Origin: Squalus acanthias
Lineage: Eukaryota
Length of the DNA: 64,000 bases
Reading direction: 5' to 3'
NCBI GenBank assembly: GCA_030390025.1
Contig: CM059431.1
Location: 113,338,001 to 113,402,000 of the forward strand
A program made the position numbers and the translations under genes. Below are positions 181 to 62,110 of the stretch, piece after piece. How positions within the stretch are numbered: the first letter of the stretch is position 1; every line of letters starts with the position of its first letter. The notes under the pieces are model-generated. The model worked only from the letters and a program-made list of their open reading frames with translations, was not told the origin of the DNA and did not search any database.

Positions 181-1434
181 TGTACATAGTCAGCAGATTT
201 ACTGTGAAATAAACTATCCTAACAGCCTCTAGAGATATAATTGTACATAGTTATGGATTTCGGATGGGAACAAACCACTGTTCCAGCTAGTCTACCCAGC
301 GAATTATTCCCTTTCTTTCTGGTCAAACATCTATCATTTATAACATTCGATAACCATGAGTTCCTTTGGACACCAAAAACTTGTCTACTTCCTTTTTGAA
401 AGCCCTTAAAAGTTTCCTATTGACCACATATGCTTCTATGACCACGTGCATGAGCGAAACAATACAAAATGGAGCAAGGTGGTGAAAGTGCCCTGTAGAA
501 AGTATAGTTCATAAACTACACCACTAAGGCTGCAGTTCTGAGTGCAGATCCAAACACTGAGTTGGGGCAAGAGGAGCAAGTATAAACAAAATAGAACGAG
601 ACCACATGAAAATGAGATATAGTAGTAACTAAAATGTCTTTTTCCGTCTTGGTTTTAATTTAATCAATCGTTTCTGGATTCTCCTTAACAGGAAGCGTCC
701 TGCCTTTTAAAGCCTTGCTGTTTCCTTTTAGCAGGCTAAGTATATTCTATAACTGTGTATTGGCAACTTTTGGGATTGGTCGGCTCAAATGGGGTGAAGC
801 AAACATTTTGTTAAGAATGTATTTAGTCACTAGTTCAAAGAGTGATTAATGAAGCATTGGAAGATTAATGGATGGGTGCTTTTTCCAAATAGGCAGAAAC
901 AAGGAAAGCTTTGAAAAGATTTAAATAGAATACTACAAATCTAAGCACAGAAGGAGGCCTTTTCAACCCGCCATGCCTGTAATTCTACAACCTCCACACC
1001 AGTTGTTTATTCTCATCCCATTTTGCTGCTCTTTCCCACACCTTTTTAACATCTTTCTCTAAGCGTTTATCTAACTGCCTTATAAACACTATTAGCTTCA
1101 ATAGCCACCTGCGGTAATATACACAGGGGTAAAAATTCAGTTGGTTGCGCCTCCCGTTAGCGCCTTAAGAGGGCGTTAATGGGGCGCAAAGCCGCTAACG
1201 CCCGGGCGCAGCAATGTTTGCGCCGCTCGAGAACTTAACTTGAGATTGTGCGGCGGCGCTAAAACTTACCGCTGCGACCACCTGCGTGCGCAGATTGTGA
1301 CGTCATTCCATGGTGCAACGCCCTTGTGGCGCCCCGGAGCGGAAATTGAGTGGCGCCCCCTGCCTTACCGCCTGGCGCTTCCAACGACCGGAAGACTGGA
1401 ACGCTATCAATCGCTGTGGGGCTGGGGGGGGCGC

Positions 1435-1442
1435 TATTTAAA
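1435..1442 (+). promoter_or_regulatory. TATA-like box upstream of the element A transposase
   Basis: TATTTAAA about 200 bp before the ATG; similar TATTTAA/TTTAAG motifs sit upstream of gene starts in other elements (9668-9674, 29651-29658, about 5062, about 35883). Confidence 0.35.
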
Positions 1443-1636
1443 GGGGGCCTCTTCCTGTCTTTTTCTGTGGTCGACATTTATGCACCACTCGTTCTGAGAG
1501 AGAGAGAGAGATTCGGAGAGAGAGAGAGAGAGACTTCTACATTGACTCAACGCTTTGTGAGGTAGTTTTGCCTATTGATCCTAACTTTGCTGCTACTTTA
1601 GTTGCTGTCCCTCATTACTTTGCTTGCAAAGAGAAT

Positions 1637-2797
1637 ATGGGGGCTGCACTGATTGGGGGCGGCGTCCTGCTCCAGCTGAATCGGAGGATACAGAGATGCA
1701 GAGAGAGAGTGGCAATGATGGCCAGACGGAGGAGGGCCATCAGGCGTCTGTACAGGAGAGCTTACCCTCCCAGGGTATATCGTGAACAGCTCTCCTACAT
1801 CCATATGTCCGAGGAGCTGTGTTTGCGAAGGCTGCGATTCAGCAAGGAGGTGGTCACTGAGCTCTGCCACCTGCTGCAGCCAGATCTGCAGCCTCAACTG
1901 AGGTCCAGGACGTCTCTGTCGGTGGCAGTGAAGGTCACAGTGGCTTTGAACTTTTACGCCACTGGCTCATTCCAAGCTGCTGCTGGGGACCTCGCCAATA
2001 TCTCCCAGTTCGCGGTGCATTGCTGCATCCGGCAGGTCACAAATGCCCTCTTCAGAAGGAGACGAGAGTTCATCTCTTTCCCTATGACCCCAGACAAGCA
2101 GCGTGACTGCGCTCTGGGCTTTGCGAGGGTAGCGGGCTTCCCCATGGTGCAGGGCGCCATTGACTGCACGCATGTGGCTTTGCGTGCTCCGCGTGAGAAT
2201 GCCGAGGAATTCAGGAACAGAAAGGGGTTCCATTCCTTGAATGTTCAGTTGGTCTGTGACCACAGACAGCTGATACTCGCTGTCAATGCCCAGTATCCTG
2301 TCAGCTGCCACGATGCTTTTATCCTGCGCCAGACTACTGTGGCAGAACTTTTCGAGGCACCGCATCAGCCAGTTGGTTGGCTTCTCGGGGACAAGGGGTA
2401 TGCATTGAGCACCTGGCTGATGACACCGCTCCGTACACCCAACACCCCTGCTGAGCTGCGGTACAATGAAAGCCATCAAGCAACCAGGAACATTATTGAG
2501 CGCACAATCGGCATGCTGAAACAACGGTTCCGCTGTCTGGACCATTCCGGAGGAGCCCTGCAGTACTCGCCTGAGCGAGTATCGAACTTCGTAGTCGTGT
2601 GCTGCATGTTGCATAACATGGCAATCCTCAGGACCCAGCCAATGCCACCAGGCCTTGGAGCACCACCAGAGGAGGAGGAGGAAGAGGAGGAAGAGGACGA
2701 GGACGATGATCATCAGCAGCACCAAGGCAGGAGGGCGGCCCACAATGGTCAAACTGCAAGGACCGTCCGTCAACGGCTAATAGCAAGCCGCTTCTAG
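1637..2797 (+). CDS. Harbinger (HARBI1-like) DDE transposase, 386 aa, uninterrupted
   Basis: First ATG at 1637 inside ORF 1568..2797; motifs GAIDCTH (D 2162-2164), [18 protein letters not shown] (D 2390-2392), IIERTIGMLKQRF (E 2498-2500), CCMLHN; acidic C-terminal tract. Confidence 0.93.
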   Translation: MGAALIGGGVLLQLNRRIQRCRERVAMMARRRRAIRRLYRRAYPPRVYREQLSYIHMSEELCLRRLRFSKEVVTELCHLLQPDLQPQLRSRTSLSVAVKVTVALNFYATGSFQAAAGDLANISQFAVHCCIRQVTNALFRRRREFISFPMTPDKQRDCALGFARVAGFPMVQGAIDCTHVALRAPRENAEEFRNRKGFHSLNVQLVCDHRQLILAVNAQYPVSCHDAFILRQTTVAELFEAPHQPVGWLLGDKGYALSTWLMTPLRTPNTPAELRYNESHQATRNIIERTIGMLKQRFRCLDHSGGALQYSPERVSNFVVVCCMLHNMAILRTQPMPPGLGAPPEEEEEEEEEDEDDDHQQHQGRRAAHNGQTARTVRQRLIASRF

Positions 2798-3090
2798 GGC
2801 CCCTGCCATTGCTACCAACATTAATCAACCCAGCACGCAACCCCTAAGCCGGCCAAGGCACCAATAATTCCAACCACCAACCATGTATATTTTGAATACA
2901 GAAACTTATTTATTTACAAACTCTGTGTGTGTCAATTCCTCATGACAAACTCATAGAAATAAACACAAAAAAACAGTCAATAACATAACTGGTTCTCACA
3001 ACCTGGAGATAATGTCCAAAACACTAAACAAAAGTTGGACCATGAACCTCGACCTTTAATAAAAAAATGACCAGCATTTTGTCACACCTC

Positions 3091-4967
3091 CTACTTTTTG
3101 CCCTTCGAGGGTGATCTCCTTCCCTTGCGCACTTCCCCCCTTCTAACCCTACTGCTCCTCCGTAATGGGACCTCAGTGGCTGCAGCAAGGCTGGTGGAAG
3201 GCTGCTGCTCGTCAGACCCTGACACTGCAGATGCCCCTGAAGGACGGCCTCGACCACTTCTGGGCCTGGAGGGCCCGGCTGCAGACTGCACCAACTCTGC
3301 ATGGGCGGCAGCAGTCTGTCCTACAGGCGGTGGCAAGTGCAGTGGAGAAGTGACAGTGTTGGCAGCAGGAATGCTGTCATCGTGAGAGAGGACAGCAACT
3401 CCCTGCTCGCCCGACACACTGGCACTCCCACGGGGCAGCACTTCAGCATCCGGAGCAATCTGCCGGAGAACAGATTGCTGGCCTGCTGCGGCGCGGTGAC
3501 AGCCCCGGGGACATGTGCACGAACCATCGAGGTTGGCAGCAGTCTGTGCTCGCGTGGCCTCAATCTGAGTCTGTATGAGAGCAGTCAGAGATGGGATCAC
3601 GGCAGCCAGTGACTGAATTGCAGCACTAAGCGTTAGTGTGGCATCCGCCTGTGCTACAGCGAAGTGCTCCACACTCCTTGCCAGTGATTCAATGCATTCG
3701 GGCACACTTCCCACTGCACCCATGAGCTCAGTGTGCATGCCCACCGCCTGGGTGTTCATTTCTGCAATCAGCCGCTCCTCCTCTGCGTCCATTGCAGTAG
3801 GAGTGTCTGGCATACTCTCCCTCTGGGGAGAAGGCCCCCGTTCTTCCCTACCCCCCCCATGGCGTTGCTGCAGCCCGCTGGGTCCTGGAGCTTCACCCTC
3901 ATCAGCCCCTTCCCCCCTGCTCCCCTCCGGGGAAGGCGTGTTCCCAGTGTGGGCATGGGCTTCCTCGGGAGAGGGTGGCACTGATGCTCTGGCTTCCTCT
4001 TCCTCCTCAGCTGCAGCATCACTCCCAGTGGCAGCTTCAGGGCCCGTCTCCTCAGCTGGTGAATCACCATCTGAAAGCAGGGAGGTACAAGAGTGGCTTT
4101 AGCGTGAGGACAGGGTGGCAGTAAGGGAGGAATAAGTGCAGCGAGTTAGCAAGTTGGATTGAAAGTGTCAAAGGCTGGTGTTGTGAGGGACAAGTGGAAG
4201 GACAGAGGACAAAAAGGTGATGACCTTACCATTGCTGTCCAGAACGGGGTCGGCGTCTCCAGTGGCGACGGGACCGATCACCCGGCTTGCCACAATCCTG
4301 TGGACGCGCTCCTCAAGCTCGCTGAGGGGTTGCAGCTGAGGCCGCCCTCCACCTGTCCGTTGCTGCTGTCTCCGATTATGCGCCAGCTTGGCCTGTAAGA
4401 AAAAGGACAGCATCTGAGTAAATATACAGCCATGGTCTTGCCTGATGTGCCTCCCATAGGTGAATAGCCCTTACTGTATGCAGCCATGGTCTTGCCTGAT
4501 GTGCCTCCCATAGGTGAATAGCCCTTACTGTATGCAGCCATGGTCTTGCCTGATGTGCCTCCCATAGGTGAATAGCCCTTACTGTATGCAAAGTGTGGAA
4601 TGTGTGTGTGTGTTTGATGAAAGGGCCATAGGTGTTGGATGAGTGTTGTGCATTGGGGTTTTAAGACCCTCTGGCCATAGAGTGAGGTTGAGATGGAGGG
4701 ATGGAGAGGTATTGAGAAAAAGCCACTCACCCTGACGACCCGAGTGAGGTCGTTGAACTTTTTGCGGCATTGAGTATGGGTCCTGGGCACCATGCTCCTG
4801 GAGGAGACGCTCTGAGCCACCTCCCTCCACACTCTTCTGAACTCGCGTGGCAAAGGCCTCCTGCCACTCTCAGGGAAGAGCATACATCGTCTGCGCTCCA
4901 CTGCGCCAACCAGAGCATCCAAGGCCCGCTCGGTGAAGCGATGAGCGCGTTCTCTCACCCTCTCCAT
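3091..4967 (-). CDS. Harbinger Myb/SANT-like DNA-binding partner protein, 3 exons (4967-4731, 4392-4230, 4070-3091), 459 aa
   Basis: Exon 1 MERVRERAHRFTERAL...VWREVAQSVS...QCRKKFNDLTRVVR then GTGAGT; acceptor tttttcttacag/GCC; exon 2 AKLAHNRRQQQRTGGG...; donor G/GTAAGG; acceptor ctttcag/AT; 237+163+980=1380 nt, in frame with ORF 3091..3981 and no internal stop. Confidence 0.85.
4427..4588. repeat. Perfect 54-bp tandem repeat x3 in intron 1 of the Myb gene
   Basis: cagccatggtcttgcctgatgtgcctcccataggtgaatagcccttactgtatg at 4427, 4481 and 4535. Confidence 0.95.
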
Positions 4968-5409
4968 GCTTGGCAGCAAAATGGATTCACAGGTCTCTCC
5001 AGGCTGAGATTCAAGGCTGCAATGAGCAGGGTGTGGCTGGGGAGCAAGTGGCCCCCCCCGCTTTAAGAAGTGGCCGGCGCCAGTGTGTCTGTGTTCCCTC
5101 GCTAACTGGCAGCAGCTGCGCTGCGCTCGCGCGCTGAGTTAGCGCCTCACTCCTTGGCCTTTGCGCCTTAAGACAGGTGTGCAGCGCCTGCTTTAGCGCT
5201 CCACTCACCTCCCGGGGCGGTAAAAGTGAAGTTTCCAGTCAGTGCCGATAATTAGCGCCAGGCGCTAATATTTGCGTCCAGACGATATTTGCGCCCCAAA
5301 TGGGGCGCGACCTAATTTCTACCCCACATTGTCTTAAGGCTCTGTATGAAAAAGGTTCTGACAACTCCCTCGTTTCTACTTCTAGTACTACTACTAAATA
5401 TATTCTAGT

Positions 5410-5510
5410 AGCAAAATACTGCGGATGCTGGAAATCTGAAATAAAAACAGAAAATGCTGGAAACACTCAGCAGGTCAGGCAGCATCTGTGGAGAGAGACA
5501 CAGAGTTAAC
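5410..5510 (-). mobile_element. Distal 3' terminus of a Penelope-like element, cut off by Harbinger element B
   Basis: Continues at 9873; an uninterrupted copy lies reverse-complemented at 59068-59165. Confidence 0.75.
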
Positions 5511-6048
5511 GGCCGCGATTTTGCTGATGCTCTGAGGGCGGGTTTGGCAGCGGGTCAGAGGTTAAAATCGTTTTGATTGATAGCGGGTTGCGATCCCGCC
5601 GTCAGCCCGCCTCCACGCTACTTTGCCAAGTGCCGGCTCTGGGAGTTCCGATCGGTCCCGCCACCAAGCGGCGGGAGAGGCACTTAAGGCAGTTAACAGC
5701 TTGTTAATTGCCTGGATAAGCCGATTTTAACAGGGTCTTGCAATTTTATTGCATTTTCAGCGTGTTCCACGCCGTTCGCAAACCACGCCAGCTGATTGTG
5801 CCGGGTTCAGCAAGTGCCTGACTTCTTGACAGTTGCAGCTCCAGCATAAAGCGGAGCTCTAACATGGCTCCCTTACAGATGACAGAACTTTGTTTTTTCA
5901 GGTGTTGGAACACTTTTTGCAAGTCTACTGATCTTGTAAGTGGTGAAGCTGAGATCCATATGCACTGTGACCTCCTTGGAAAACCCTCTGGCCACATTGA
6001 CTGAGCGCTTATAACTTCTAGTCCTCAACTGAGATATATACCAGCAGA

Positions 6049-7267
6049 ATGGGAACCATTTATACCCTGTCATCCTGGTCATCAGAATCGGAGGAAGAGC
6101 AGCCGCGGCAGCAGCAGAACCAGGCACAACAGCAGCAGCAACAGCAGGAGCGCCAACCTCCTCCTCACCCACCTGATACTGCACAGGGTAGAGGGAGTCA
6201 GCGCAGGGCTGCACCACGCCGCAGGAGATACCCCCAACACAGGGTTTACAGGCCGAGGATGAGCTTCCTCAACATGACTGAGCAGCAGTGCCAAAGGAGG
6301 CTGAGACTTTCGCGAGAGGTAGTTGCTGACATCTGCGCAATGCTGCACCAACACCTGGAGCCCAGAGGAGCGGGTGGACACCAATTACCAGTCGCTTTCA
6401 AAGTCACCACCGCCCTCAAATTCTTTGCTTCAGGGTCCTTCCAGGGATCATCAGCAGACATCGATGGAATCTCCCAGTCGGCCACACACACTTGCATCAC
6501 GCAGGTAACTGATGGCCTCTTTGCAAAGGTGCACAATTACATCCACTTCTCCACGGATGAAGCAAGTGTAATCGCGCATGCGATTGACTTTGCAAAGATG
6601 GCAGGCTTTCCAAGGGTGCAGGGCGTCATAGACTGCACACATGTGGCCATTAGGGCACCCCATCACAACCCGCAAGGTCTTCCACTCCCTTAACGTCCAG
6701 CTGGTGTGTAACCACAGGAAGAACATTATGCATGTTTGCGCAAAGTACCCTGGCAGTTGCCATGACTCCTTCATCCTGCGGCAGTCTACTATGCCTCAGC
6801 TCTTCAATCCGCCAACCCAACTTTCCGGATGGCTACTTGGAGACAAGGGCTATCCCCTGAAGACGTGGCTAATGACGCCATTAAGGAGGCCATCAAACGA
6901 AACTGAGGAGCGCTACAATGCCAGCCACATTTCCACCAGAGCCATCATCGAGCAAACCATCGGCTTGCTCAAAATGCGATTCAGAAGCCTCGACAGATCA
7001 GGTGGAGCCCTACAGTACTCACCAGCCAGGGTCTCCAGAATCATCGTGGTCTGCTGTGCACTGCACAACATCGCACAGCAGCATGGCTTAGCGCTGCCTG
7101 AGGAACAAGTGGCTCAGCGCAGAGCCTCCTCCTCAAAGGAGGATGAGGAGGTGGAGGAGGAGGAGGAGGAGGACCTTACGGAGGCAGATGCGCCAGTTCC
7201 ACCAGCACGCGAGCACATTGCTGCCTGTGATGCAAGGGATGCATTAATCTATGCCAGATTCACTTAA
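6049..7267 (+). pseudogene. Harbinger transposase with a frameshift near 6672 and a poly-Q N-terminus
   Basis: ORF 6049..6693 (GVIDCTH) continues in another frame as 6641..7267 (FHSLNVQ, GDKGY, IIEQTIG); relative to the element C homolog, about 17 nt encoding PGIFVN are missing. Confidence 0.9.
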
Positions 7268-7528
7268 GTTGACGAAGCAACCACATGTGGCTGCCATCTT
7301 CTTAATACACCATACACATTGTACAATAAAGTGTGGGTTCCTATCACTCTCACCACCATCATTACAGATGAAAGGTGCCCTGGCACCTCACTGTGACACT
7401 TCCATTTCTGGGCACACATAGGTCAGCTCTTTGAATGTTTGCCATCGCATTTCTTTATTGAAATTGAAATGGCGATGATTATATTAAAGATGTATTGCAT
7501 CAAAACACCCAAGTGACTACCCTTGTGA

Positions 7529-9601
7529 CTATAGCTGCTTCATCTTTCTCTTATGCATGCTTCTACATGGTGCTTCCCCTGTGGCTTCAGCAGATGTGGA
7601 GGCCCCTTGCTCACTTTCATGCTGCTCCTGCTTCGACACCTTTGGCGGGCGTCCTCTGGGCTTGCGAGCCTGGGAGGGCTCGGCAACAGTCTGCTCCTCC
7701 TGCGACTGTGCAGGGGCTGAGACGGCCATCTCAGTTGGGTGAGGACTCTGAGGCTCTGACCGAGGGAACCGCAGTGGCATGGTCGTGTGAGCGCTTGGAG
7801 AGGAGCCCACACTTCCTTGTTGCCTGCCACCAACATCCCTCTCATGGGTCAGCCACACTTCAGTGCTAGCAAGTGACTGGGCAGCACCTTGCTGCACATC
7901 AGTGGGGCCATGAGGACCCGTACCGGCACTGGCAGTCCTCCTCAAAGGACGTCCATGAAGCTCTGGTCTCTCTGCTCAATAGCTGCCCATTGCTCCTCCA
8001 GAGATGTCAATCTATTCTGAACAATCACCATGTTTTCCTGACTCTGGCGACTTATTTCCTCCATGACCGTAGCCATCCTTTCCATGTATAATTTTATTGT
8101 GAAACAATTTCTGACGAGAGTCCCTGAATTAAGAGGAAAGATCACAGACAGCGGTTCTTAAAGGGACACTGCAGCCCCAAGATCACAATCAGCTATATAT
8201 CCAGAATATTAAACTCCAGCCAAATTATTGGGGATATTAACCATGGTGGTGCGTTCATGCGCCATTGCCTCCACAAAGGCAGTGCTCATGTTAGAGATGG
8301 ACTCCTCCATCCTCTCCACACTCGCAGTTACCCCGGATGCAAAACCTGCCAGAGACTCCTGCACTTGTTCATGGAATTCCAGCACCGCTCTCTTTCTGGA
8401 TGGCCCCAGAGTCAAAGGGTCCACATGCAGCTGAGCAGAGCTTGGAGCGCCCTGCGGCCTCCGACGAGGACTGTCAACTGCTGTCCCTGTCTCCACCATC
8501 TGCTGATGCTCACTTGTGAGCTGTGATACACCAGGTGACAACACTACTCTATCCTGCGAAGGACCCACCGAGGTGTGCATATCTGCGCTGGTGCTGGGTG
8601 CGCTTAATTCTGCTGACGCTGCACCCTCAGAGGTTGCATCTTCCTCGGGGGAGTCTTCTGGCTCTTCCTCCTAGACAGTGGGGAGGGGGGCTCTCGATGG
8701 TCCTGTGGGGGAGTAAAGGCATGAGTTAGACATGTGATATTAACATAGCATGCACATCGAATTGTGCAGATGATCATAACTCAATCTGTATGAACATCAG
8801 ATGCCATATCAGTCACTCATGCAATGTAACTGAGAGGGCTGCAAATCTATTCTGTCACCAGCTTGCTCTACTGCGCCCGTCTGACCATCCCCCACTTCCA
8901 GATCCTCAGCTCCTCCTATGATCTCCAGAGCAGCCTCCTCAGCGGTGGTCAGCTGGGCAATGGAAGGTGGACCTCCTCCTGTCCTGGCCCTCTCCCTCTT
9001 ATTGTGGGATCTCTTTTCCTGCAATGAGGGACACAAGTGGAGTTGGAGTGAGAATGTTCGAGTGAGTATAGAGAATCCATAGCATAGATGCTTAGAGGGA
9101 GACAAAGATGGAGGGAGGTGCCAATACCAAGGGCCCTCCTTGTGCGTTGTTAGTTGTTGTCATTGCATAACAGTGATAGCGAGTGTGAGGGGTGCATAGT
9201 AGAATAGTGAAGTGACTCTGTACATAGAGAGAGAGGGATGGTTATGGGTGCAAGGGATGTAAGGGTAAAGTGGGATGTGCAGGAGTAGATTGACAATGCA
9301 GAGTGCTGGTGATGAGAGGAGATGGGGAGCAGATTGAAGGTAAGTGTGATGTTAGACTCACTTTTGCTGTGTGTACCAGGTCATTAAACCTTTTTCTGCA
9401 CTGGACCCAGGAGCAAGCACACAACGATCTGGAGCTCACCTCCTCAGCAAGTTGCAGCCAGGCTCCTTTGCTTTGCTGAGGAGGCTTCCTCCCTCCGGAT
9501 GAGGGGAAGAGTACCTCCTGGCGCCCTCTCACTCCCTCCACAAGAGCATGGAGGGAGTCATCATCAAAGCGGGGAGAGGCCTTAGCTCTTGCAGCAGTCA
9601 T
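7529..9601 (-). pseudogene. Harbinger Myb/SANT partner gene, disrupted (exons 9601-9362, 9018-8859, 8702-7529)
   Basis: Exon 1 MTAARAKASPRFDDDSL...WVQCRKRFNDL then GTGAGT; exon 2 EKRSHNKRERARTGGG; exon 3 has an in-frame TAG at 8671-8673, a 154-bp insertion and a further stop/frameshift near 7945; C-terminus RKPRGRPPK. Confidence 0.82.
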
Positions 9602-9872
9602 GGCTACAATTTCAACAAGGAGAAGCAGCAGGAAAGGATAGATTCGAAACAATGCTGCATGGGCCCCTTAAATACAGCTGGCTGACAAACGTCAGCAGAG
9701 GCGAGCAGCAGACCTGAAACCACTAATTGGGCCGGGTAGCGCGCACGGACACATTAAGTAGGCCACTTAAGGCAAAATCGCTTTTTCTGGATGGCTGAAA
9801 GCGGAGGCGGGACCGGAACCTGCCGAACCTCAAACCCACACCCAACCCGCCTCCATTGATAAAATCGCGGCC

Positions 9873-17918: not shown

Positions 17919-20900
17919 GGCCACGATTTCACTGACCGAGGCGAGTCCAGTGCGGCCGGGGTCGGTGTCGCGGTCCCAGCCCGCTGCCTGCTGCAGCCCG
18001 CACTCTCCAAGTGATTTTACGTTAATAGGGCTTGTTAAGCCCACCCTGCGAGGTTCCCAGCCAATTAAAAGGAAGCAGGCCTGATGACGTCATCAGCCGG
18101 TTTCCTTAAAGGGGCCATGTCCAAATTGATCTTGACAGTTCTGCTGTCAGTGTTCTACAGCATTGAGGTGCTGTAAACACTGACAAGCACTGCACAGAGG
18201 TGTATGGCTGCACCCAGGCTCTCCCATGACTCCCTCCATATGCTTATGGAGGGAGTCACAACAGGCTGGGAGGTTCTCTTCCCTTCCAAGGGCGGAAAAG
18301 ACCTCCCCAGGACACCAACACAGCCTGGTTGCACATTGCACAGGAGGGCACAAGCAGGGATGTTGCCAGGAGGACCAGACTGGTGTGGCGCAAACCTTTC
18401 AATGATCTCAGTAGATCACGAAACGTTACTACCAAGTCACACTCAACCTCATCCTGCTGTGCCACTCATCACATCCCCATCACTCTGCCTTCCCTACCCT
18501 ACTCCTGCACATCCTTCTCACACCAACTTACCTTGCACCTCCAGCCATCCCTCTCTATCTACATTATCACATACCCATCTCACTAGTCACCGCTCACACT
18601 CACCCTCATCCTACTGCAAGCATACCAACTAACAACACACAAGGGTAGGCACTTTTCATGTGAAGTTTCTGGTAATGTGCTGTCAAACATTGAAACCTTT
18701 ATTTTCTGCACTTTGTGTTCTTGGACAGATTTGTGTGCACCTTTGGAAGTGGCTTAGTGAGTTGTAGTGAATGATGAGACATAACGGTACCTGCCCCCGC
18801 CACCCCCACAATGGTGATGAGTGTGAAAGGAATGGCTTGGGCATTGTAGGGATGTTTGTAAAGTTTCGCAATTATCGCGATTCGAAATAACGAGATAGAA
18901 GCAGATTCGTTTGATCAGTTTATTTAAACGAAATGCTGTCATGATTAAACAGGACACAGAAGCCTGTAAAATGGCCTGCCGCGCATCGTGGCAGAAGTTT
19001 CCAGAAGTACAGTGGGCAGACAAGATGGCGTTCGAATAAACATTTTCGATAAGCACTGATAAAGACAGGATGCAACCTGTTTGCATTTGTGACAATAGCA
19101 AAAGATATGAGTGCTGGAATCGTTTTCCATGCACAAGTAAGGACCATTGTACTGGGCAATCGAAGGCCCATCCAGACACATCAATATGCAAATATCCCCA
19201 CGGCTCTACAATGAGAGAGCCATTCTCGGGTGATTAAACAAGTATTCGGGGGCCCCCAAAACCCAGCCAGGAGGCTCCGAGCCGGTTCAACAATGGGGAA
19301 AACATTAACGGGTAGTTGGCCAGTCTCAGGTGCTACCGAAACCCGTTAAAGACAAGAATCACCCCATGCTGGGAGTTTTGAGCGCCAATATTTCACAAAG
19401 GACAAACATTAAGATTTGGGCGGGAGATAAGGGAACACAGCACTATAACTATAGACAACAAATGTCCATCGGGCTCTTATTTCTCTTATCTCTGCGGACT
19501 CTTGACTGGGGCTGAACTCTGCTGGACGAGCAGCCTTCTGTGTTTCTCTGGACTCTGTTGACTCTGGACTTTTAGCCGCACTGGACGGTTATTCGAATGT
19601 TGGGTGGAGCTCAATCGGGACGAGCCGCCTCGACGAAGGGCGAGTAACCGGGTGCACCATCACGAGTGTCGGTAAATGGTGTTTTGGACCCGAAGGCCCG
19701 AAGAGACGAGACGAGACGAGATGAGAAGAGAAGAAGAAGAATCCACGTGCCGCCACGGTCAGTAAACCCCGACCGCGCCGAATTTATACGAACTCTATCA
19801 GTTATTGCACGAACTGGTCATAGACTCTTCCTCGAATTTTATCGACAACTGGTGTCGATACAGGAAGACTCTTCTTTGAATTTTACCGGCTAACTGGTGT
19901 CGGTCCAGGAAGACTTTTCTTTGAGTTCTACAGCCGGGCCCGAGCACTGTCGAGTTCTTCATGACAACGGGGAGCCCGGCCTGCTTGCAGCAGCAGCGAA
20001 GATAAACAAGTGGGGTACAGAGACCCCTCAAAACACATGACAGTCAGGCGCTGCAGCGAAATGAGCCGAGCGCCTCACTTTAAAATTCTCCAAAGTATCA
20101 CGAGTGGTGAGCATGTTTCCCGATCCTACAAATCTAGATGTAGTGTAGGTATTGATAAGGGAGGGTGGTTTTATTAAGGATAAAGTATAATGTGTTCCCC
20201 TTTTTATGATGTGCCGTGCGTTCTTCATTACCATAGACCAAGCTTTATGAATGTATGTATACTTGTACTCTCGTTAATTTGCGCCTATGACATGTACTTC
20301 ATGATTTTGGACGCTATGCAATAAAGATTTCCATTTTGTACTATTCAACCGGGTCTATTTGAGTTTTTCTCTGCATTACTGCTCTCGCACCTAAGTCCAG
20401 TGTTAGAACCATAAGGGCGAGTGGGTCGAACCACTCACAGGTGCTTATTGCAACAAGGCTGGCCGGAGACCAGAGCAAGCAATAGTATTAGGCAACGAAG
20501 GCCTAACCCCGTACCAGCACCATCTGCGATACAAGCACGACACAAGACCCCTTACATGTTTTATGGTGTTGGTGTGGGGTGGTGCCAACCTGGCGCATCA
20601 TGTGACATCCAGGGTGTACAGCGTCAAGTGAAGTAAATCTGGGCATGATGAGGTCATCCCTGGGTCCCGGGCAGCAATGTGGTCGGGTGCTGAAGCCCTG
20701 TGTCCTGTCCAGCATCAGTTGATTGCAGAGAAGGCTGGTGTTATTGTTATTGCTGCTGGTGTGCCCGGTGATGCTGGTGTTGAGGCTGATCTTGGTGGGA
20801 TTCTGAGGACCAAGGTGAGATATTTTCAAGGGCAATGATGCTAATGGAATAGATGGCAGGTGAGGTTGAGATGACAGAAGCGATCTGTCAATGGTGAGAG

Positions 20901-25301: not shown

Positions 25302-26063
25302 GGGCTGGATTTTCAATGACCCGTGGAGTCGGGTTTAGAGGCGTGTGGGGGGTTAAAGTTGCGGGGTCGGGGGTCCCGACCCCATCCCGACCCCATCCCG
25401 CCTCCACGCAATTTTGACAAAATCGGTCACGGGGTTCCCGACTCTGTCCCGCCTCCAAGAGGTGGGAGAGGCCATTAAAGCCCTTAACAAGCCCTAAATT
25501 GGCTGTGTAATGCCATTTTGAAACATTTTAGCTAGTTTAACCCTTTTCTGATGTGAAGTACGCCTGATGTGAAACACGCCAGTGAAACCTGGCGGGAGCA
25601 CAAGTGGATTGCTGACTATCAGCTGCAGGTCCGCTATTACAACGGAGATGTGATGAAGATAGTGGTAGTATTGTGATGAAGGTAGTAGTAGTATTAGGTC
25701 TGAAAGTCGCCTGTGATGCTGCTGCATTGAATGTCTTCAGAGACTGCCTGGGAGGACTTGGTTGCAAAATAAATTCATATTCTCTCTCTCTCTCTCTCAT
25801 ATTTTGCATCCAGGTCCACTCACAGCAAAAGCCAGGCAGTCTCTGAGACCAGACCAGGCAGTCTCTGACCTACAATGATGACATCATCAGAGGCGACTTT
25901 CAGACTGAAACCACTAATTGGTTCATGGGTTCCCACATGCTGGTTCTCAATTGCCCAATTAAGTGAAAATTGCATCAATCTCCCACATCCAATTTCAGGC
26001 AGGTGGATAACACGAAATGCGGATGACACGACCCCAACCCGACCCCAAGACAAAATCCAGCCC
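25302..26063. mobile_element. Harbinger MITE (762 bp) of the element C family
   Basis: TIRs GGGCTGGATTTT / AAAATCCAGCCC; both arms match the ends of 27837-29995 in opposite orientation; flanks ATT/AAT. Confidence 0.88.
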
Positions 26064-27836: not shown

Positions 27837-29995
27837 GGGCTGGATTTTGTCTTGGGGTCGGGTTGGGGTCGTGTTACCCACATTTCGTGTTGCCCCCCCG
27901 ACTCCAGATTAATGTGGATTAATGATGCGATTTTAACTTAATTGGCCAATTGAGTTCAAACATGTGGGAACCCATGGCCAATGAGTTATTCCAGTCTGAA
28001 AGTCGCCTCCGATGACGTCATCATTGCTGCTGCATTTAAGGTCTGCAACAAGCCTTGCTTCCTCTGCAGGCTGCCAAGCTTTTGGACCTGTAATCTTAGC
28101 ACCTGCAGCAGGAATGGCCAGCCAACGGCCCAGGGCCATTGTCGTAGCTCTGGTAAGAAGCTGCGAGGCAAAAGTGCTTTCTTGTCTAGGCTAAGCAAAT
28201 CTGGCCAAGATGAGTGCGTTCCTTGCATTCCGGGCAGCTATGGTCTCGCGTAATGCTGCTGCTGGTTGAGGGGCCTCTGCAACTTGTTCGTTCTCTCTCT
28301 CCTCCTCCTCCTCCTCCTCCTCCTCCTCCTCCTCATCTGAGGAGGCTATGTGAGGAGCCACTTGGTCCTTCGGCATCTGTAAGCCATGACACTGTGCCAT
28401 GTTGTGAAGTGCACAGCAAACCACGACGATTCTGGAGACCCTGGCTTCTGAGTATTGCAGGGCTCCACCTGATCTATCCAGGCATCTGAAGCGCATCTTC
28501 AGCATACCGATGGTTTGCTCGATTATGGATCTGGTGGAAATGTGGCTGGAGTTGTAGCTCTCCTCAGCTGCGTTGGATGGGCTCCTCAATGGCATCATTA
28601 GCCACGTCCTCAGGGGATAGCCCTTGTCTCCAAGTAGCCATCCGTGAAGTTGGGCTGGCGGACTGAATAGCGGAGGCACACTAGACTGGCGCAGTATGAA
28701 GGAGTCATGGCAACTGCCAGGGTACTTGGCACAAACATGCAGAACTTCCTTGTTGTGGTCACACACCAGCTGAACGTTGAGGGAGTGGAAGCCCTTGCGG
28801 TTGACAAAAATACCTGGATTGCGATGGGGTGCCTTCAGGGCCACATGTGTGCAGTCAACGACGCCCTGCACCCTTGGAAAGCCTGCCAGATTAGCTAATC
28901 CAACCGCACGCGCCGTGACACTTGCTCGATCCTTGGTGAAATGGATGTGATTGTGCGCGATGGCAAAGAGGGCATCGGTTACCTGCGTGATGCAGGTGTG
29001 TGCGGCCGCCTGGGAGATGCCGCTGGTGTCTGCTGCTGATCCCTGGAATGAGCCTGAGGCAAAAAAGTTGAGTGCGGTGGTGACTTTGACAGCCACTGGT
29101 AAGGGGCGTCCACCTGGTCCTCTGGGCTCCAGGTCTTGTTGCAGCATTGCGCAGATGTCACCCACTACCTCTTGCAAAAGTCAGAGCCGCCTTTGGCACT
29201 GCTGATCAGACATGTTGAGGTAGCTGACCCTCTGTCTGTAGACCCTGGTTGGGGGGTATCTCCTGCGCCGACGGCCTTCCATGCGCTGGCCCCTTCTGTC
29301 CTGTGCAGCTTCAGGTGGGTGAGCAGCAGCTTGGCGCTCCTGCTGTTGCTGCTGCTGTTGCTGCTGCTGTTGGTGGTGCTGTTGTTCATGGTTCTGCTGG
29401 TGCCGCGGCTGCTGTTCCTCCTCATCGGATATCCAGGAGGGAAGGAAATAAATGGCTCCCATGCCTCTGGTATATGTCTCAGTTGAGGAAGCGCTCAATG
29501 AGGGTGACGAGAGGGGTTTCCCAGGAGGTCACACTGCAGATGGGTGTCCGGCTCCAAACTGCCAGAGCTGTGGTTGTGCCTTCTAAAAGTTCCCCCAGAC
29601 CTGTTACAACAAAGTCCTGCCACCTGCAATTGATGGCTGATCAAATCTCCTATTTAAAGGTTGAGCTGTAATGAGAGTCAGCAATCCACTTGTGCTCCCG
29701 CCAGGTTTCACTGGAGTGTTTCCCATCAGGCGTGCTTCACGTGGGAAAAGGGTTAAAGTACCTAAAATGGTTCAAAATGGCATTACTGAGCCATTAGGGA
29801 TAGTTAAGAGCGTTAATGGCCTTTCGCGCCTCTTGGAGGCGGGACGGAGTCGGGAACCCCACGACCCATTTTGTCAAAATTGCGTGGAGGCGTGTTGGAG
29901 TCGGGATGGGGTCGGGACCCCCGAATCTGCTACTTTAACCCCCCCCCCCCACATGCCTCCAAACCCGACTCCACGGGGCATTCAAAATCCAGCCC
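27837..29995 (-). mobile_element. Transposase-only Harbinger (element C, 2159 bp)
   Basis: Perfect 13-bp TIRs GGGCTGGATTTTG / CAAAATCCAGCCC; AGC on both flanks; no Myb gene body. Confidence 0.93.
28191..29462 (-). pseudogene. Harbinger transposase with a single in-frame nonsense codon (TGA at 29183-29181)
   Basis: ORFs 29181..29498 and 28191..29177 share a frame; RRL*LLQEVV versus [10 protein letters not shown] in element B; DDE motifs intact (GVVDCTH, GDKGY, IIEQTIG). Confidence 0.9.
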
Positions 29996-33970: not shown

Positions 33971-36122
33971 GGGGGAGAAATTCGGTACCATAGCGCCTCC
34001 AGTTAGCGCCTAGCGGGGGTGCTAACGGGGCACTGAGGCAGTAGCGCTGCGAAGGCCCGGCTGTAGACTGCACCACCTCAGCATGGGCGGCAGCAGTCTG
34101 GGCTGGCTGGATGACAGGCAGCGACAAGGGCAATGGCGGAGTGGCAGTGGTGGGCGCAGGAATGCTGTCATCCTGAGAGAGGATAGCAGGTTCCTGCTCC
34201 ACTGACCCACTGCCACTCCCCCAGGGCAGCACCTCAGCATCCCTAGCAATCTGTTGCAGCATGTGATTGTTGGCCTGCTGCGACACCGTGAAAGCCCCGA
34301 TCGACGGTGGTAGACCCAGCCACGGTGGCAGCAGTCAGAGCTTGCGTGGCATCAAGCTGAGACTGTATGAGAGCAGTCTGAGATTGAATGGCACCAACCA
34401 TAGATTGCATTACAGCACTAAGACGTTGCGTCACTTCCTCCTGTGCTGCAATGGAAGCTGCCAGTTCGCCCATCACACGCGGCATCAGGTCAGGGTCTCC
34501 ACAGTCTCTCTGGGAGTCGACTATCCTTTCCAGATTGGAAATGATGGGCTCCATGGTGTGTGCAGAGCTTTGTGCAATGCTGGAGGCGGAAACCTCCACG
34601 CTCTTTACCATTGCCGACAGGCTCTTGGGCAACCTTGCCATTGCACCTATCATCTCCATGTGCCTGCCCATCACCCTTCTTCTAAAGGCCTCCCCATCGA
34701 GGTCCTCATCTGAGTCCTGTGCAGCAGAACTCGCGTGCGAACTCGCACTCCGGGGAGCTGGCCCCCGAGCTACCCTTTCCCCCTGGCCTTGCTGCAGCCT
34801 GCTCGTTCCCGGTGCCTCACCCTGTGCAGATCCGACTACTATACTAGCCTCTTAAGAATGCGTAGTGCCAGTATCTGAGCTGGTGCCTGCGGGTGAGCCA
34901 TGCAGTGACGCGGTGTGTTCTTCCTCCTCCTCTTCTCCTGCCTCACTCTCTACGGTGCCCTCAGGGACAGGCTGCTCCGGTGCTTGCTCATTATCTGAAT
35001 GCATGAAGGCACAAGAGTCGGGTTAAGGTGAGGGGTGGGGTCAGGAAGGGAGAAATGCATGCATACAGCATGATTAGCTGGAAAATGCGAAACGCTTGTG
35101 GGGTGAGGGGGAAGTGGGATGTGAGAAGAAGGAGTAGGGATGAACATACCGTTTTTGTCCCCAAGGGGGTCAACGTCGCCAGTGGTCATGGCGCCCAATA
35201 ATCTGCAGCACTCTATTCTCCAGCGCAGACAGTGGTTGGGTGTCGGCTTGTCCCCCGCCTGTGCTCCTGCTCCCTCCTGTTGTGAGCCACCTTGGCCTGC
35301 AAGAGAGAGGAAAGTGTGTGAGTGAGTGTGGAGCAATGTGTTTAGGTGATGTGCCTGCCATAGTGGAATAGCTGTCATTGTGTGAAAAGTGTGAGATGTG
35401 GGTGTGAGTGTTGGTAGGTGGAGATTGTTGGTGGGTGAGTGCTGGGGGTGTGGTGCTTTGGCCAGTGTGTGCAGTCTGAGGTTCAGATGGTGGTATGTAG
35501 CATTTGTTGAGGCATTGACTCACCCTGACCACCCGAGTGAGGTTGTTAAATTTCTTCCTGCACTGTGTGTGGGTCCTGGGGACCACAGTGCTGCCCGAGA
35601 CCTGCTGGGCAACCTCCCTCCACATGGCGCGGAAGACTTGTGGCGAGGGCCTCCTGCCACTTGCCGGGTACAGCACCGCCCTCCGTCTCTCCACAGCGAA
35701 CACCAACACCTCCAATGCTTGGTCCAAAAATCTGCGGGCTCTCTCCCTGGAGTGTGGATCTGCCATCATGAAACCTGTTTGAGTCATTCGACTCCTTGGG
35801 CTTGGCCTGCTCCTGCTTGCTGACACAGGTTCACAGGCAGCAATGCTGAGAATGAGGTTCTGCAGCATGAATGAACCTTCCCTTTAAGAACTGGAAAGAG
35901 CCTGTGGCAATGATGACTTGTGATTAGACTGCACCTGATATTGGTTAGCGCTTTGAGTGTAACTGAGCCAGGCCGTTAGCGCTTGATTTAGCGCTCCGAT
36001 ATTTTCTTTGAGCGATGACACTGAATTTTGCGTGCAGTGAAAATCATTAGTGCCTGGCACTAAATCTCAAAAACTTTTCCAAAGTTTGCGTCCATTCCTG
36101 GGTGATAATGAATTTCTCGCCC
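33971..36122 (-). mobile_element. Myb-only Harbinger deletion derivative related to element A (element E, 2152 bp)
   Basis: TIRs GGGGGAGAAATTC / GAATTTCTCGCCC (12/13); AAA on both flanks; about 80 bp of left end joined directly to the Myb 3' region; no transposase. Confidence 0.88.
34050..35769 (-). pseudogene. Myb/SANT partner gene with frameshifts, 3'-truncated
   Basis: Exon 1 35769-35524 MMADPHSRERARRF...QCRKKFNNLTRVVR then GTGAGT; exon 2 from 35296 AKVAHNRR; exon 3 homologous to element A (AAGQQS...QIARDAEVLP) with a frameshift near 34265. Confidence 0.85.
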
Positions 36123-39974: not shown

Positions 39975-41717
39975 GGCCGAAGTTTTCCAGGGTGATAGCG
40001 GGTGGGAATGGAGGTGGGTCGGGTGGGAACCCGCCATCATCCTGCCTCCACGCACCTTTCCCATGGGCATGTTTGCTGGTGCGGCAGCAACCCAACCGGC
40101 AGAGGCGGGCGACCTTATTGAAATCATTATCATGGAACTTTACAGGCACTTAAATCACCCTACATTTTAAATTTCCCTGCACGGCCACGGGATTCACACA
40201 GCTCGGGAAGCACGTCTGTCAACCTGAGGCGGGAGTTCCGTGGCCATTGCTCCAGCTGATTACTTGACAGCATCAAATGTACAGTAAAAGCTACCACCTG
40301 ACAGATGATCACTTTCCTCAGACAGAAGCTGTTGCTCAGTCCATTTCCAGCACAGATTCTGCAGGCTGCAAGTCTTTCCAGCAAAGTCTCCATCCAGTCT
40401 CACCTCATTGGAAGAACTCACTCACCATTGACAGAATGCTTCTGTCATCTGTACTTCACCTGCCATCTATTCCATCAACATGGGTGCCCTTTATACTGTC
40501 TCACCTTGGTCCTGAGAATCAGACCACGATGAGCCCCAACATCAGCAGCACCAGGCACACCAGCAGCACCAACAACACCAACTTTCTCCGCAATCACCTG
40601 ATGCTGCACAGGACAGAGGGCATCAGTACCCGAGCATATTGCTGCCCTGGAGGCCAGGGATGGCCTCATCATGGCCAGATTTAGTTAACTGTACACCCAT
40701 ATGGCTGCCATTTGATGCGCCAGGTTGGCACCACCCCACACCAACACCATAAAGCATCCCTACAATGCCCAAGCCATTCCTTTTACACTCATCACCATTG
40801 TGGGAGGTACCGTTATGTCTCACCAGTCACTGGAACTCACTAAGCCACTTCCAAAGGTGCACACAAATCTGTCCAAGACTGGAAAGTGTTGAAAATAAAG
40901 ATTCTTATGTTTGACACCACATTAACAGAAACTTTACATAAACATTGGGTAAAACACTGAAGTAGCTACCCTTGTGTATTGTTAGTTGGTATAATTGCAC
41001 TAGGAGGAGGGTGAGTGTGAGGGGTGGCTAGTGAGATGGGGATGTGATAATGTAGATAGAGAGAGAGGGATGGGTGGAGGTGCAAGGTAAATTGGCGTGA
41101 GTAAGGATGTGCAGGAGTAGGGATGGGAAGGCAGAGTGATGGGGACATGATGAGAGGCACAGCAGGATGAAGTTGAGTGTGGCTTTGTACTAACGTTTCC
41201 TGATCTAATGAGATCATTGGAACATTTGTGACACTGCACCCAGGTCTTCCTGAACACATCACTCTTTGTGACCTCCGCTGCAATCTCCAACCAGGCTGTT
41301 TTGGTCTTCTGGGGAGGTCTCTTCCGCCCATCGGAAGGGAAGAGGACCTCACTGTGTGCTGTGACTCCCTCCATAACCATACGCATATGGAGGGAGTCAT
41401 CGGAGAACCTCTGCCGCTGTGCAGTCATTGTCAGTGTTTGCAGCACTCCAATGCTGTAGTGCACTGACAGCACTATGTTAGATTAAACGTCAAATCTAAT
41501 TTGGCCATGGTCCCTTTAAAGATTCCAGCTGAAAACACGTCATGAATGACGTCACTAGACTCGCCACTTAATTGGGCCGGGTAACGCATTGGGCGGGCTT
41601 AATAGGCCTTATTAATGTAAGTTCGTTTTCAGCAGTGGGATGGAGCCAGCAGCGGGGTCATGACCCGCCATGGCCACCGCCCACACCGGACCTACCCAGG
41701 TGGGCAAAATTCCAGCC
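39975..41717. mobile_element. Non-autonomous Harbinger (family D copy 2, 1743 bp)
   Basis: Termini GGCCGAAGTTTT / AAAATTCCAGCC; AGT on both flanks; transposase 5' relic at about 40480-40630 (+) and Myb exon 1 relic at about 41430-41195 (-). Confidence 0.85.
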
Positions 41718-60571: not shown

Positions 60572-62110
60572 ATTTGTACTACAGCATTGGAGTGCTGCAA
60601 ACACTGATAATGACTGCACAGAGGCAGAGGGCTGCACCCAGGTTCTCCGATGACTCTCTCCATATGCTTCTGGAGGGAATCAGAGTATGCAGGGAGATCC
60701 TCTTCCTTTACGATGGGTGGAAGAGACCTCCCCAGGAGACCAAAACAGCCTGGTTGCACATTGCACAGGAGGGCACAAGCAGGGATGTGTTCAGGAAGAC
60801 CTGGGTGCAGTGGCACAAACCTTACAATGATCTCATTAGATCATGAAACATTAGTACAAAGCCACACTCAACCTCATCCTACTGTGCCTCTCATCACATC
60901 CTCATCACTCTGCCTTCCCTACCCTACTCCTGCATATCCTTACTCACACCAACTTACCTTGCACCTCCACCCATCCCTCTCTATCTACATTATCGCATCC
61001 CCATCTCATTGGCCACCCCTCACACCCACCATCATCCTAGTGCAATTATATCAACTAACAATACACAAGGGTAGCTACTTGTGTGTTTTATCCAATGTTT
61101 ATGTAAAGTTTCTGTTAATGTGGTGTCAAACATAAAAATCTTTATTTTCAGCACTTTCCAGTCTTGGACAGATTTGTGTGCACCTTTGGAAGTGGCTTAG
61201 TGAGTTGCAGTGAATGGTGAGTCATAACGGTAATCCCCCCCTCCTGATGAGTGTGAAAGGAATGGCTTGGGCATTGTAGAGATGCTTTCTGGTGTTGGTG
61301 TGGGGTGGTGTTAACCTGGCGCATCATGTGGCAGCCATATAGTGTACAGCGTAAAGTTAACTAAATCTGGCCATGATGCAGCCATCCCTGGCCTCCCAGG
61401 CAGCAATGTGCTCGGGTGCTGATTTCCTCTGTCCTGTGCAGCATCAGGTGATTGCGGAGATGGTTGGTGTTGTTGTTGGTGCTGCTGGTGTGTCTGGTGC
61501 TGCTGGTGTTGGGGCTCATCGTTGTCCGATTCTGAGGACCAAGGTGAGACAGTATAAAAGGCACCCATGTTGATGGAATAGATGGCAGGTGAAGTACAGA
61601 TGACAGAAGCATTCTGTCAATGGTGAGAGAGTTCTTCCAATGAGGTGAGACTGGATGGAGACTTTGCTGGAAAGACTTGCAGCCTGCAGAATCTGTGCTG
61701 GGAATGGACTGAGCAACAGCTTCTGCCCGAGGAAAGTGATCGTCTGTCAGGTGGGAGCTTTTACTGCATATTTGATGCTGCCAAGTAATCAGCTGGAGCA
61801 ATGGCCACGGAACTCCCGCCTCAGGTTGACAGACGTGCTTCCCGAGCAGCGTGGTTCCCGTGGCCATGCAGTTAAATTTAAAAAGTAAGTTAAAAAAGCC
61901 TGTTAAGGTTCTGACAACAAGCTGTTAATCATCTCAATTGGGTCCCCCGCTGCTGCCGGTCGGGTCGGCTCCTCGATGACAGATGAGCCTGGGGGGAAAG
62001 GCACGTGGGAGCGGGATGACAGAGGGTTCCTGACCCACTGTCAAAAATAGCAACTTTCCCACCCGACCCGCCATCGATCGCGCCCGCTACCACCCCGGAA
62101 AATTCCGCCC
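60572..62110. mobile_element. Non-autonomous Harbinger (family D copy 3), left end deleted
   Basis: Right terminus AAAATTCCGCCC; Myb exon 1 relic MTAQRQRAAPRFSDDSL...WVQWHKPYNDL (+); transposase 5' relic MGAFYTVSPWSSESDNDEPQHQQ (-). Confidence 0.85.

What the first reader, a model, noticed from the sequence alone, without database searches (positions are those of the whole stretch)
1126..5325. Structurally complete two-gene Harbinger transposon, possibly still mobile
Seen: TIRs, an exact ACA TSD, an unbroken 386-aa DDE transposase, and a 3-exon Myb/SANT gene with GT-AG junctions that splice to an open 459-aa frame; the ends are CpG-rich. Known: Harbinger transposition needs both proteins, and the zebrafish Harbinger3_DR system was shown active only after consensus reconstruction. 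Inference: this is a young copy from a family that may be naturally active in a cartilaginous fish, and a candidate two-component vector.
Basis: partly seen in the sequence, partly recalled or inferred. Interest (0 to 1): 0.72.

Follow-up and report, generated by a model that had tools for sequence, protein, structure and literature searches.

The report
Intact-looking shark Harbinger transposon, ageing copy
This is a real, full-length cut-and-paste "jumping gene" with both of its genes still readable, but it is one of very many copies in a shark-like genome and shows signs of slow decay, so it is an ordinary member of a known kind with no evidence that it still moves.

Summary
The anatomy is confirmed: 12-bp terminal inverted repeats (one mismatch), an exact ACA duplication, an open 386-aa DDE transposase with its acidic residues, and a three-exon Myb/SANT gene whose four splice sites recur in a paralogue. 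Activity is not shown. Public DNA runs suggest a family of roughly a thousand or more copies in one organism label, with 98-99%-alike sequence under six further labels. This copy differs from nearly all its family at 9 visible sites; 5 are CpG transitions and all 7 coding ones change a residue. It also has valine at a glycine kept by 36 of 39 catalytically intact homologues, four residues before a catalytic aspartate. Two samples appear to carry the same insertion on flanks about 0.6% unlike the window. No empty site or spliced joint was among the rows shown. CpG-rich ends also occur in a broken neighbour, so they do not show youth. Best reading: a slowly decaying copy from a low-divergence burst that is probably about a million generations old or more. 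The scan already noted similar Harbinger copies elsewhere in this genome; sea-krait and newt Harbinger bursts are published precedents.

The parts
1123..1125 (.). Left target-site duplication ACA
   Evidence: exact match to 5326-5328
1126..1137 (+). Left terminal inverted repeat, 12 bp
   Evidence: 11 of 12 match to the right end; other copies also end at 1126/5325 in joints
1156..1190 (.). Left subterminal GCGCC-type motifs shared with the right end; candidate Myb-protein binding sites (inferred)
   Evidence: three 11-mers shared between the ends (two here, one at 1369-1379)
1435..1442 (+). TATA-like box ahead of the transposase gene (motif only, untested)
1496..1531 (+). (GA)n tracts in the 5' leader
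1637..2797 (+). Transposase ORF, 386 aa, DDE_Tnp_4; D176, D226, D252 and E288 present; V222 at a conserved glycine; C21, C158, Q219, M293 and T376 differ from nearly all family reads
2798..3090 (.). AT-rich spacer between the convergent genes, with poly(A)-signal hexamers on both strands (2909, 2958, 3055, 3058)
3091..4070 (-). Myb/SANT-like gene exon 3, ends in stop; S255 differs from nearly all family reads
4071..4229 (-). Intron 2, 159 nt, GT-AG, holds an in-frame stop if retained
4230..4392 (-). Myb/SANT-like gene exon 2; E104 (position 4318) is private to this copy or nearly so
4393..4730 (-). Intron 1, 338 nt, GT-AG; holds three 54-bp tandem units (4423-4590) where the relative at 33971-36122 has one
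4731..4967 (-). Myb/SANT-like gene exon 1, trihelix DNA-binding domain
   Evidence: PF13873 E 6.1e-9
5138..5308 (.). Right subterminal GCGCC-type motifs
5314..5325 (-). Right terminal inverted repeat, 12 bp
5326..5328 (.). Right target-site duplication ACA

Best explanation
A full-length, autonomous-structure Harbinger DNA transposon. Mechanism of the family (from established knowledge, not shown here): the Myb/SANT protein binds the element's ends and brings the DDE transposase into the nucleus and to the ends; the transposase cuts the element out and pastes it into a loosely palindromic target, duplicating 3 bases. The family amplified to about a thousand or more copies in this lineage through several selected master variants. 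This copy landed once, stayed, and has since gathered unselected mutations, many at methylated CpG. It has not yet been hit by a stop or frameshift, but its transposase is probably impaired (V222, C158). The burst is young in divergence and old in generations, because sharks mutate slowly. Shown: anatomy, high abundance, private changes. Inferred: fixation, age, impairment, silence.
For: Anatomy. Abundance: at 4318 in X2 the family letter has summed depth 654,786 against 7.1 for all else and 6.7 for the flank contig; allowing the largest overcount I can see (31 overlapping words, and 6.7 as one haplotype) leaves about 1,600 copies (the tool warns that summed depth is no copy number). Decay: of 38 element rows shown (of 211 rows in all), 9 have the other letter at 0.8 or more in both X1 and X2; 5 of 9 are CpG transitions and 7 of 7 coding ones are missense, while 12 of 23 coding rows that vary within the family are silent (Fisher p 0.024; threshold set after seeing the data). 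G at 222 in 36 of 39 homologues that keep D/D/D/E, V in none; G in 102 of 112 homologues with a residue there. Shared insertion: X1 contig 656-1150 and X2 contig 600-1150 run from unique flank 25 bases into the element, each with 3 other letters. Slow clock: 7e-10 per base per generation in epaulette shark (PMC10587355, passages) makes 0.25% about 3.6 million generations, 1.8 million at the upper bound of that rate.
Against: Both frames, all splice sites and the catalytic acidic residues are intact; my simulation gives only about 0.11 for that at 1% divergence and 0.51 at 0.3% (with an assumed indel rate), which favours the young end. Zero silent changes in 7 is itself compatible with chance (p about 0.11). 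The junction contigs reach only 25 bases into the element, under the tool's 31-base rule for bridging, and the right junction was not among the rows shown. A second X2 contig over 932 (depth about 4.9) is unresolved and could be an empty allele. Whether V222 is private or shared by the family was not visible in the rows shown. About a fifth of laid contigs are 99% or more alike to the window stretch (10,286 of 55,602 in X1; 18,484 of 98,942 in X2), which leaves room for younger subfamilies. The mutation rate comes from another species, and CpG sites run faster, so the age may be overstated several-fold.
Confidence: 0.68

Rival explanations
1. The family is still transposing in the living species: some other full-length copies are expressed, spliced and mobile, and this copy is an older bystander that could still be moved in trans.
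For: Very high abundance, with interior depth about half that of the ends, so many copies are full-length; silent-site excess among family variants points to selected, once-active masters; both ends of this copy are intact; sea-krait Harbinger-Snek has 269 intact copies in one species and reads across both genes in another (PMC8437027, parts 1-2 of 4 read).
Against: No spliced joint for X16 among 15 of 135 joints shown, and an X16 contig runs unspliced from 4561 to 5019 across the intron-1 donor (X16 is only guessed to be RNA). Four joints from the right end into the high-copy repeat at 5410-5445 occur in both X1 and X2, as expected for shared old insertions. 98-99%-alike sequence under six other organism labels suggests the family predates those splits.
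Confidence: 0.2
2. This very copy is a recent, competent, possibly polymorphic insertion.
For: Exact TSD, open frames, intact splice sites and catalytic residues; confident DDE-type model, mean pLDDT 89.9.
Against: Nine near-private changes among the rows shown, V222 at a conserved glycine, apparent sharing by two samples on flanks 0.5-0.6% unlike the window, and at most single-copy depth for the window letter at 4318 in X2.
Confidence: 0.07
3. A domesticated host gene pair of the HARBI1/NAIF1 kind.
For: Database homologues are labelled 'putative nuclease HARBI1'; both frames are open.
Against: TIRs, a TSD, very high family depth against single-copy flanks, and private changes that are all missense. 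The label is applied to many transposon copies of one species.
Confidence: 0.02
4. The family spread horizontally between cartilaginous fishes and exploded in one lineage, as Harbinger-Snek did in sea kraits.
For: Six other organism labels hold 0.50-0.60 of the words. In X13 (organism G) the element lies in long contigs at depth about 35-40, 1.4% from the window, at least about 30-fold rarer relative to the neighbouring high-copy repeat than in organism A, and with letters that are minority in A (2209, 4774, 4775). No protein above 66% identity was found in annotated sharks and rays.
Against: Names are coded, so relatedness is unknown; slow shark evolution allows 98-99% identity by descent; low-level contamination or low coverage could mimic the X13 pattern. 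This rival concerns origin and is compatible with the best explanation.
Confidence: 0.12

Closest known systems
Harbinger3_DR of zebrafish (reconstructed; Sinzelle et al. 2008, not held; known here from passages of PMC3016246 and PMC9392472)
   Same: Two genes, DDE transposase plus Myb-like partner; 3-bp duplication; flanks of this insertion match the published 15-bp palindromic target at 7-8 of 12 flanking bases, against 3 of 12 in the shifted register.
   Different: The duplication here is ACA, not CWG; both frames are open in a natural copy; no activity test exists. No sequence comparison with Harbinger3_DR was run.
Harbinger-Snek of sea kraits (PMC8437027, parts 1-2 of 4 read)
   Same: Large, low-divergence vertebrate Harbinger burst with intact two-gene copies, solo-ORF variants and short derivatives; this window also holds Myb-only (33971-36122) and transposase-only (27837-29995) elements.
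   Different: Snek is 8-12% of its genome and has horizontal-transfer evidence and RNA reads; here abundance is only a rough bound, and origin and expression are open.
Pleurodeles waltl Harbinger expansion (PMC5741667, passages)
   Same: Vertebrate genome with bursts of Myb-bearing Harbingers.
   Different: Expression shown in newt; not shown here.
Chondrichthyan 'putative nuclease HARBI1' predictions (Pristiophorus, Heptranchias, Narcine and others)
   Same: Same transposase clade, up to 66% identity.
   Different: None is this family; several have lost the catalytic Glu. Harbingers are reported in whale shark and grey reef shark repeat tables (passages), but at 1.58% total DNA transposons in the latter.
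Naturally mobile PIF/Harbinger elements: maize PIF, rice Ping/mPing (titles and abstract start) and Caenorhabditis inopinata Turmoil2 (10.64898/2026.05.26.728016, passages)
   Same: Two-protein architecture.
   Different: Those have observed new insertions; this element has none.

Membership tests
Harbinger/PHIS superfamily, two-gene autonomous type | DDE transposase of the DDE_Tnp_4 kind with catalytic acidic residues | tested here: met
   PF13359 E 2.5e-38; D176, D226, D252, E288 at columns where the same residue is the majority. Their assignment as metal ligands is recalled from HARBI1 annotation, not from a call.
Harbinger/PHIS superfamily, two-gene autonomous type | Second gene with a Myb/SANT trihelix domain | tested here: met
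   PF13873 E 6.1e-9; splice sites conserved in paralogues
Harbinger/PHIS superfamily, two-gene autonomous type | Terminal inverted repeats and a 3-bp target-site duplication | tested here: met
   12-bp TIR, ACA/ACA; the relative at 33971-36122 has AAA/AAA in the same register. The TIR is shorter than the 'usual' 25-50 bp of PMC9179366.
Harbinger/PHIS superfamily, two-gene autonomous type | Interspersed multi-copy family | tested here: met
   Summed depth 1e5-1e6 in the element against 7-34 in the left flank bins, X1 and X2
PIF/Harbinger group in the strict sense of Han et al. 2015 (PMC4482050, passages) | TSD is TWA | tested here: not met
   ACA here; AAA, AGC, AAC/AAT and ATT/AAT at four other Harbinger-like elements of the window. 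Not filed in this group.
NuwaI group (Han et al. 2015) | TSD is CWG | tested here: not met
   ACA; the shifted register gives CAG/CAC, a mismatch, and fits the known target flanks worse. One head-to-tail joint in X1 would fit a CTG reading. Not filed in this group.
Active (currently mobile) transposon family | Insertion polymorphism or new insertions | tested here: inconclusive
   Left junction seen in two samples; no empty-site joint among 15 of 135 shown; no assembly held
Active (currently mobile) transposon family | Spliced expression of the Myb gene and expression of the transposase | tested here: inconclusive
   One run guessed to be RNA: unspliced contig across the intron-1 donor, no spliced joint among rows shown
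Active (currently mobile) transposon family | Excision and integration with both proteins | not testable with these tools
   needs a cell assay
Domesticated HARBI1/NAIF1-type genes | Single-copy, syntenic, no TIR or TSD | tested here: not met
   TIR, TSD and high family depth; synteny not tested

The most novel reading that the evidence does not exclude
This shark family is a naturally active vertebrate Harbinger: among its thousand or more near-identical, largely full-length copies some still express both genes and move, and the family has also crossed between several cartilaginous fish species. It would be a vertebrate two-component system that works without reconstruction, with a relaxed 3-bp duplication inside a palindromic target.
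Probability: 0.15. Interest if true: 0.65.

Novelty: new member of a known kind. Interest (0 to 1): 0.3.

Why it matters
As it stands: a well-preserved example of a very abundant, apparently uncatalogued shark Harbinger family. It shows that Harbingers, undetected in elephant shark (PMC9179366), are major repeats in some sharks (five Harbinger-like elements make up 21% of this window), and that an intact look is weak evidence of activity in a slow-mutating genome. With so many close copies, the family's active form would be easy to infer and to test as a two-component vector. If natural mobility were shown, it would be the vertebrate case that my paper searches did not turn up.

Tried and rejected
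No whole genome is held, so no copy census. No RNA holder listed on record; this is no evidence on expression. Protein searches found no member of this family: best 66% identity among 323 hits (120 listed), 61% among 39 shorter proteins, and one distant hit for Myb exon 1; so the family state at residue 222 stayed unknown. No PDB sequence match; Foldseek gave no match at E 0.001, the top weak rows being DDE integrases and transposases (RSV, piggyBac, TnsB, Tn5; E 0.013-0.019). A search of the window with the joined flanks found no paralogous empty site. CpG-rich ends rejected as a sign of youth. The shifted boundary 1127-5324 rejected (mismatched TSD, poor target fit). No right end found for the related left end at 53416. 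The Squalomix genome-size preprint has no mention of Harbinger or PIF in its main text (10.1101/2025.06.08.657570, term search); its supplements are closed and may bear on shark repeat content. The Harbinger3_DR paper itself is not held. A search of earlier findings by sequence gave nothing.

Full report
Observation. The ends at 1126 and 5325 form a 12-bp inverted repeat with one mismatch, flanked by ACA on both sides. The alternative boundary 1127-5324 gives CAG/CAC and fits the published Harbinger3_DR target flanks at 3 of 12 bases, against 7-8 of 12 for 1126-5325; the related element at 33971-36122 has an exact AAA duplication in the same register (target consensus from a passage of PMC3016246). 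The ends share three 11-mers built on GCGCC, which I infer to be binding sites for the Myb-like protein. The transposase frame 1637-2797 is open for 386 aa and matches DDE_Tnp_4 at E 2.5e-38. The convergent gene splices at GT-AG junctions to 459 aa, and exon 1 matches the Myb/SANT domain. The splice model has independent support: all four sites align with those of the Myb-only relative at 33971-36122, and the intron-1 sites recur in the more distant broken element at 5511-9872.

What it is. The best 71 of 120 listed homologues are from sharks and rays, at most 66% identical, so the host is very likely a cartilaginous fish and this family was not found in the protein collection. D176, D226, D252 and E288 stand at conserved columns; that they are the metal ligands is recalled from HARBI1 annotation. 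The AlphaFold model is confident (mean pLDDT 89.9). It has no close solved relative; the weak top Foldseek rows are DDE integrases and transposases. It is a two-gene member of the Harbinger/PHIS superfamily. It fails the TSD definitions of the TWA (PIF/Harbinger) and CWG (NuwaI) groups of Han et al. (PMC4482050, passages), so I do not file it in either; four other elements in the window also have other triplets.

Abundance. Twenty of 21 listed runs hold part of the stretch; organism A holds 0.79-0.84 of the words in five DNA runs, and six other labels hold 0.50-0.60, which corresponds to roughly 1.2-2.2% divergence. I laid 4 of the 21. In the two organism-A DNA runs the flank contig has depth 15.4 and 6.7, while summed depth in the element is of the order 1e5-1e6. 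The tool warns that this is no copy number. As a bound: at 4318 in X2 the family letter has depth 654,786 and everything else 7.1; dividing by the greatest overcount I can see (31) and taking 6.7 as one haplotype leaves about 1,600 copies. Interior depth is about half that of the ends, so many copies are full length. In X13 (organism G) the element lies in long contigs at depth about 35-40 and 1.4% from the window, and is far rarer; descent, horizontal transfer and contamination cannot be told apart with coded names.

Is this copy young and competent? One search showed 40 of 211 difference rows, 38 within the element. At 9 of them the other letter has a share of 0.8 or more in both A runs (threshold chosen after seeing the data; 3052 and 2213 pass in X2 only and are left out of this class). 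Five of the 9 are CpG transitions in the window copy, and all 7 coding ones change a residue: C21, C158, Q219, M293, T376 in the transposase and E104, S255 in the Myb protein. Among the 23 coding rows that vary within the family, 12 are silent, above the 25-29% expected without selection (p 0.004-0.018; Fisher p 0.024 between the classes). This is the usual signature: selected master lineages, then unselected decay of a landed copy. On its own, 0 of 7 silent is compatible with chance (p about 0.11). The transposase also has valine at 222, where 36 of 39 homologues with all four acidic residues have glycine and none valine; in the model it lies in the turn between a strand and the helix that begins at D226. 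Whether V222 is private was not visible in the rows shown, and its effect is inferred.

Is the insertion polymorphic? X1 and X2 (two samples, two studies) each have a contig running from unique flank to 1150, with 3 other letters in 495 and 551 bases. That is 25 bases into the element, short of the tool's 31-base rule, and the right junction was not shown; one of the samples may be the window's source, though both differ from it at 844 and 932. Taken at face value, the insertion is older than haplotypes that differ by 0.5-0.6%. No empty-site joint is among the 15 of 135 joints shown; a second X2 contig over 932 is unresolved. At the epaulette-shark rate of 7e-10 per generation (PMC10587355, passages), 0.25% is about 3.6 million generations, or 1.8 million at the upper bound of that rate. 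CpG sites run faster and the rate is from another species, so I take only the order: about a million generations or more.

Do intact frames and CpG-rich ends show youth? Weakly, and no. Under neutral decay with an assumed indel rate, both frames and the splice sites stay open in 51%, 32% and 11% of trials at 0.3%, 0.5% and 1% divergence, so a family of this size should hold many intact-looking copies without being active. The broken neighbour at 5511-9872 has ends nearly as CpG-rich (0.98 and 0.81 against 1.14 and 0.98). Expression is open: the one run guessed to be RNA gave an unspliced contig across the intron-1 donor and no spliced joint among the rows shown.

Comparison and verdict. Both proteins are needed for Harbinger transposition, and Harbinger3_DR was reconstructed (passages of PMC9179366, PMC9392472 and PMC3016246; the primary paper is not held). 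Intact two-gene copies from recent vertebrate bursts are published for sea kraits (PMC8437027), bursts with expression for the newt (PMC5741667), Harbingers are listed in shark repeat tables, and a spontaneous insertion is reported in a nematode. I found no paper showing natural mobility in a vertebrate (open-licence library only). Earlier notes of this scan describe similar full-length Harbinger copies and the target preference in the same genome; I did not check whether they are this family. Verdict: a real, well-preserved, ordinary copy of a very abundant shark Harbinger family; present activity of the family is possible (about 0.15-0.2) but unshown, and this copy is a poor bet as the active form.

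Noticed in passing
   Followed up: partly
window 33971-36122: A 2.15-kb Myb-only relative of the focal element with exact AAA duplication and the same exon structure but frameshifts; 65-77% DNA identity in parts.
   Followed up: partly
window 27837-29995 and 25302-26063: A transposase-only Harbinger (AGC duplication, one stop in the frame, 79% alike to the 5511 element) and a 762-bp short element with the same terminal sequences.
   Followed up: partly
window 53416-about 54100: CpG-rich stretch whose start is 74% alike to the focal left end; no matching right end found nearby.
   Followed up: partly
window 4423-4590: Three 54-bp tandem units at 98-100% identity inside intron 1; the relative at 33971-36122 has one unit.
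   Followed up: partly
run X1, joint 5325 to 1126: A contig joins the right end to the left end with one T between (depth 45): a head-to-tail pair or a circle junction; it could also be read as a CTG duplication with 3-G ends. Unexplained.
   Followed up: no
run X1, joints 1147 to 5192 and 1463 to 5192: Internally deleted derivatives of the family that keep both ends (depth 52-63).
   Followed up: no
run X13 (organism G): The family is present at low depth in long contigs, with two variants at about equal depth in two stretches and letters that are minority in organism A.
   Followed up: partly
window 18151-18857, 40026-41656, 60575-62109: Further repeats, 72-87% alike, with weak matches to Myb exon 1 (tblastn E 2e-6 to 6e-4): more decayed Harbinger-like copies.
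   Followed up: no
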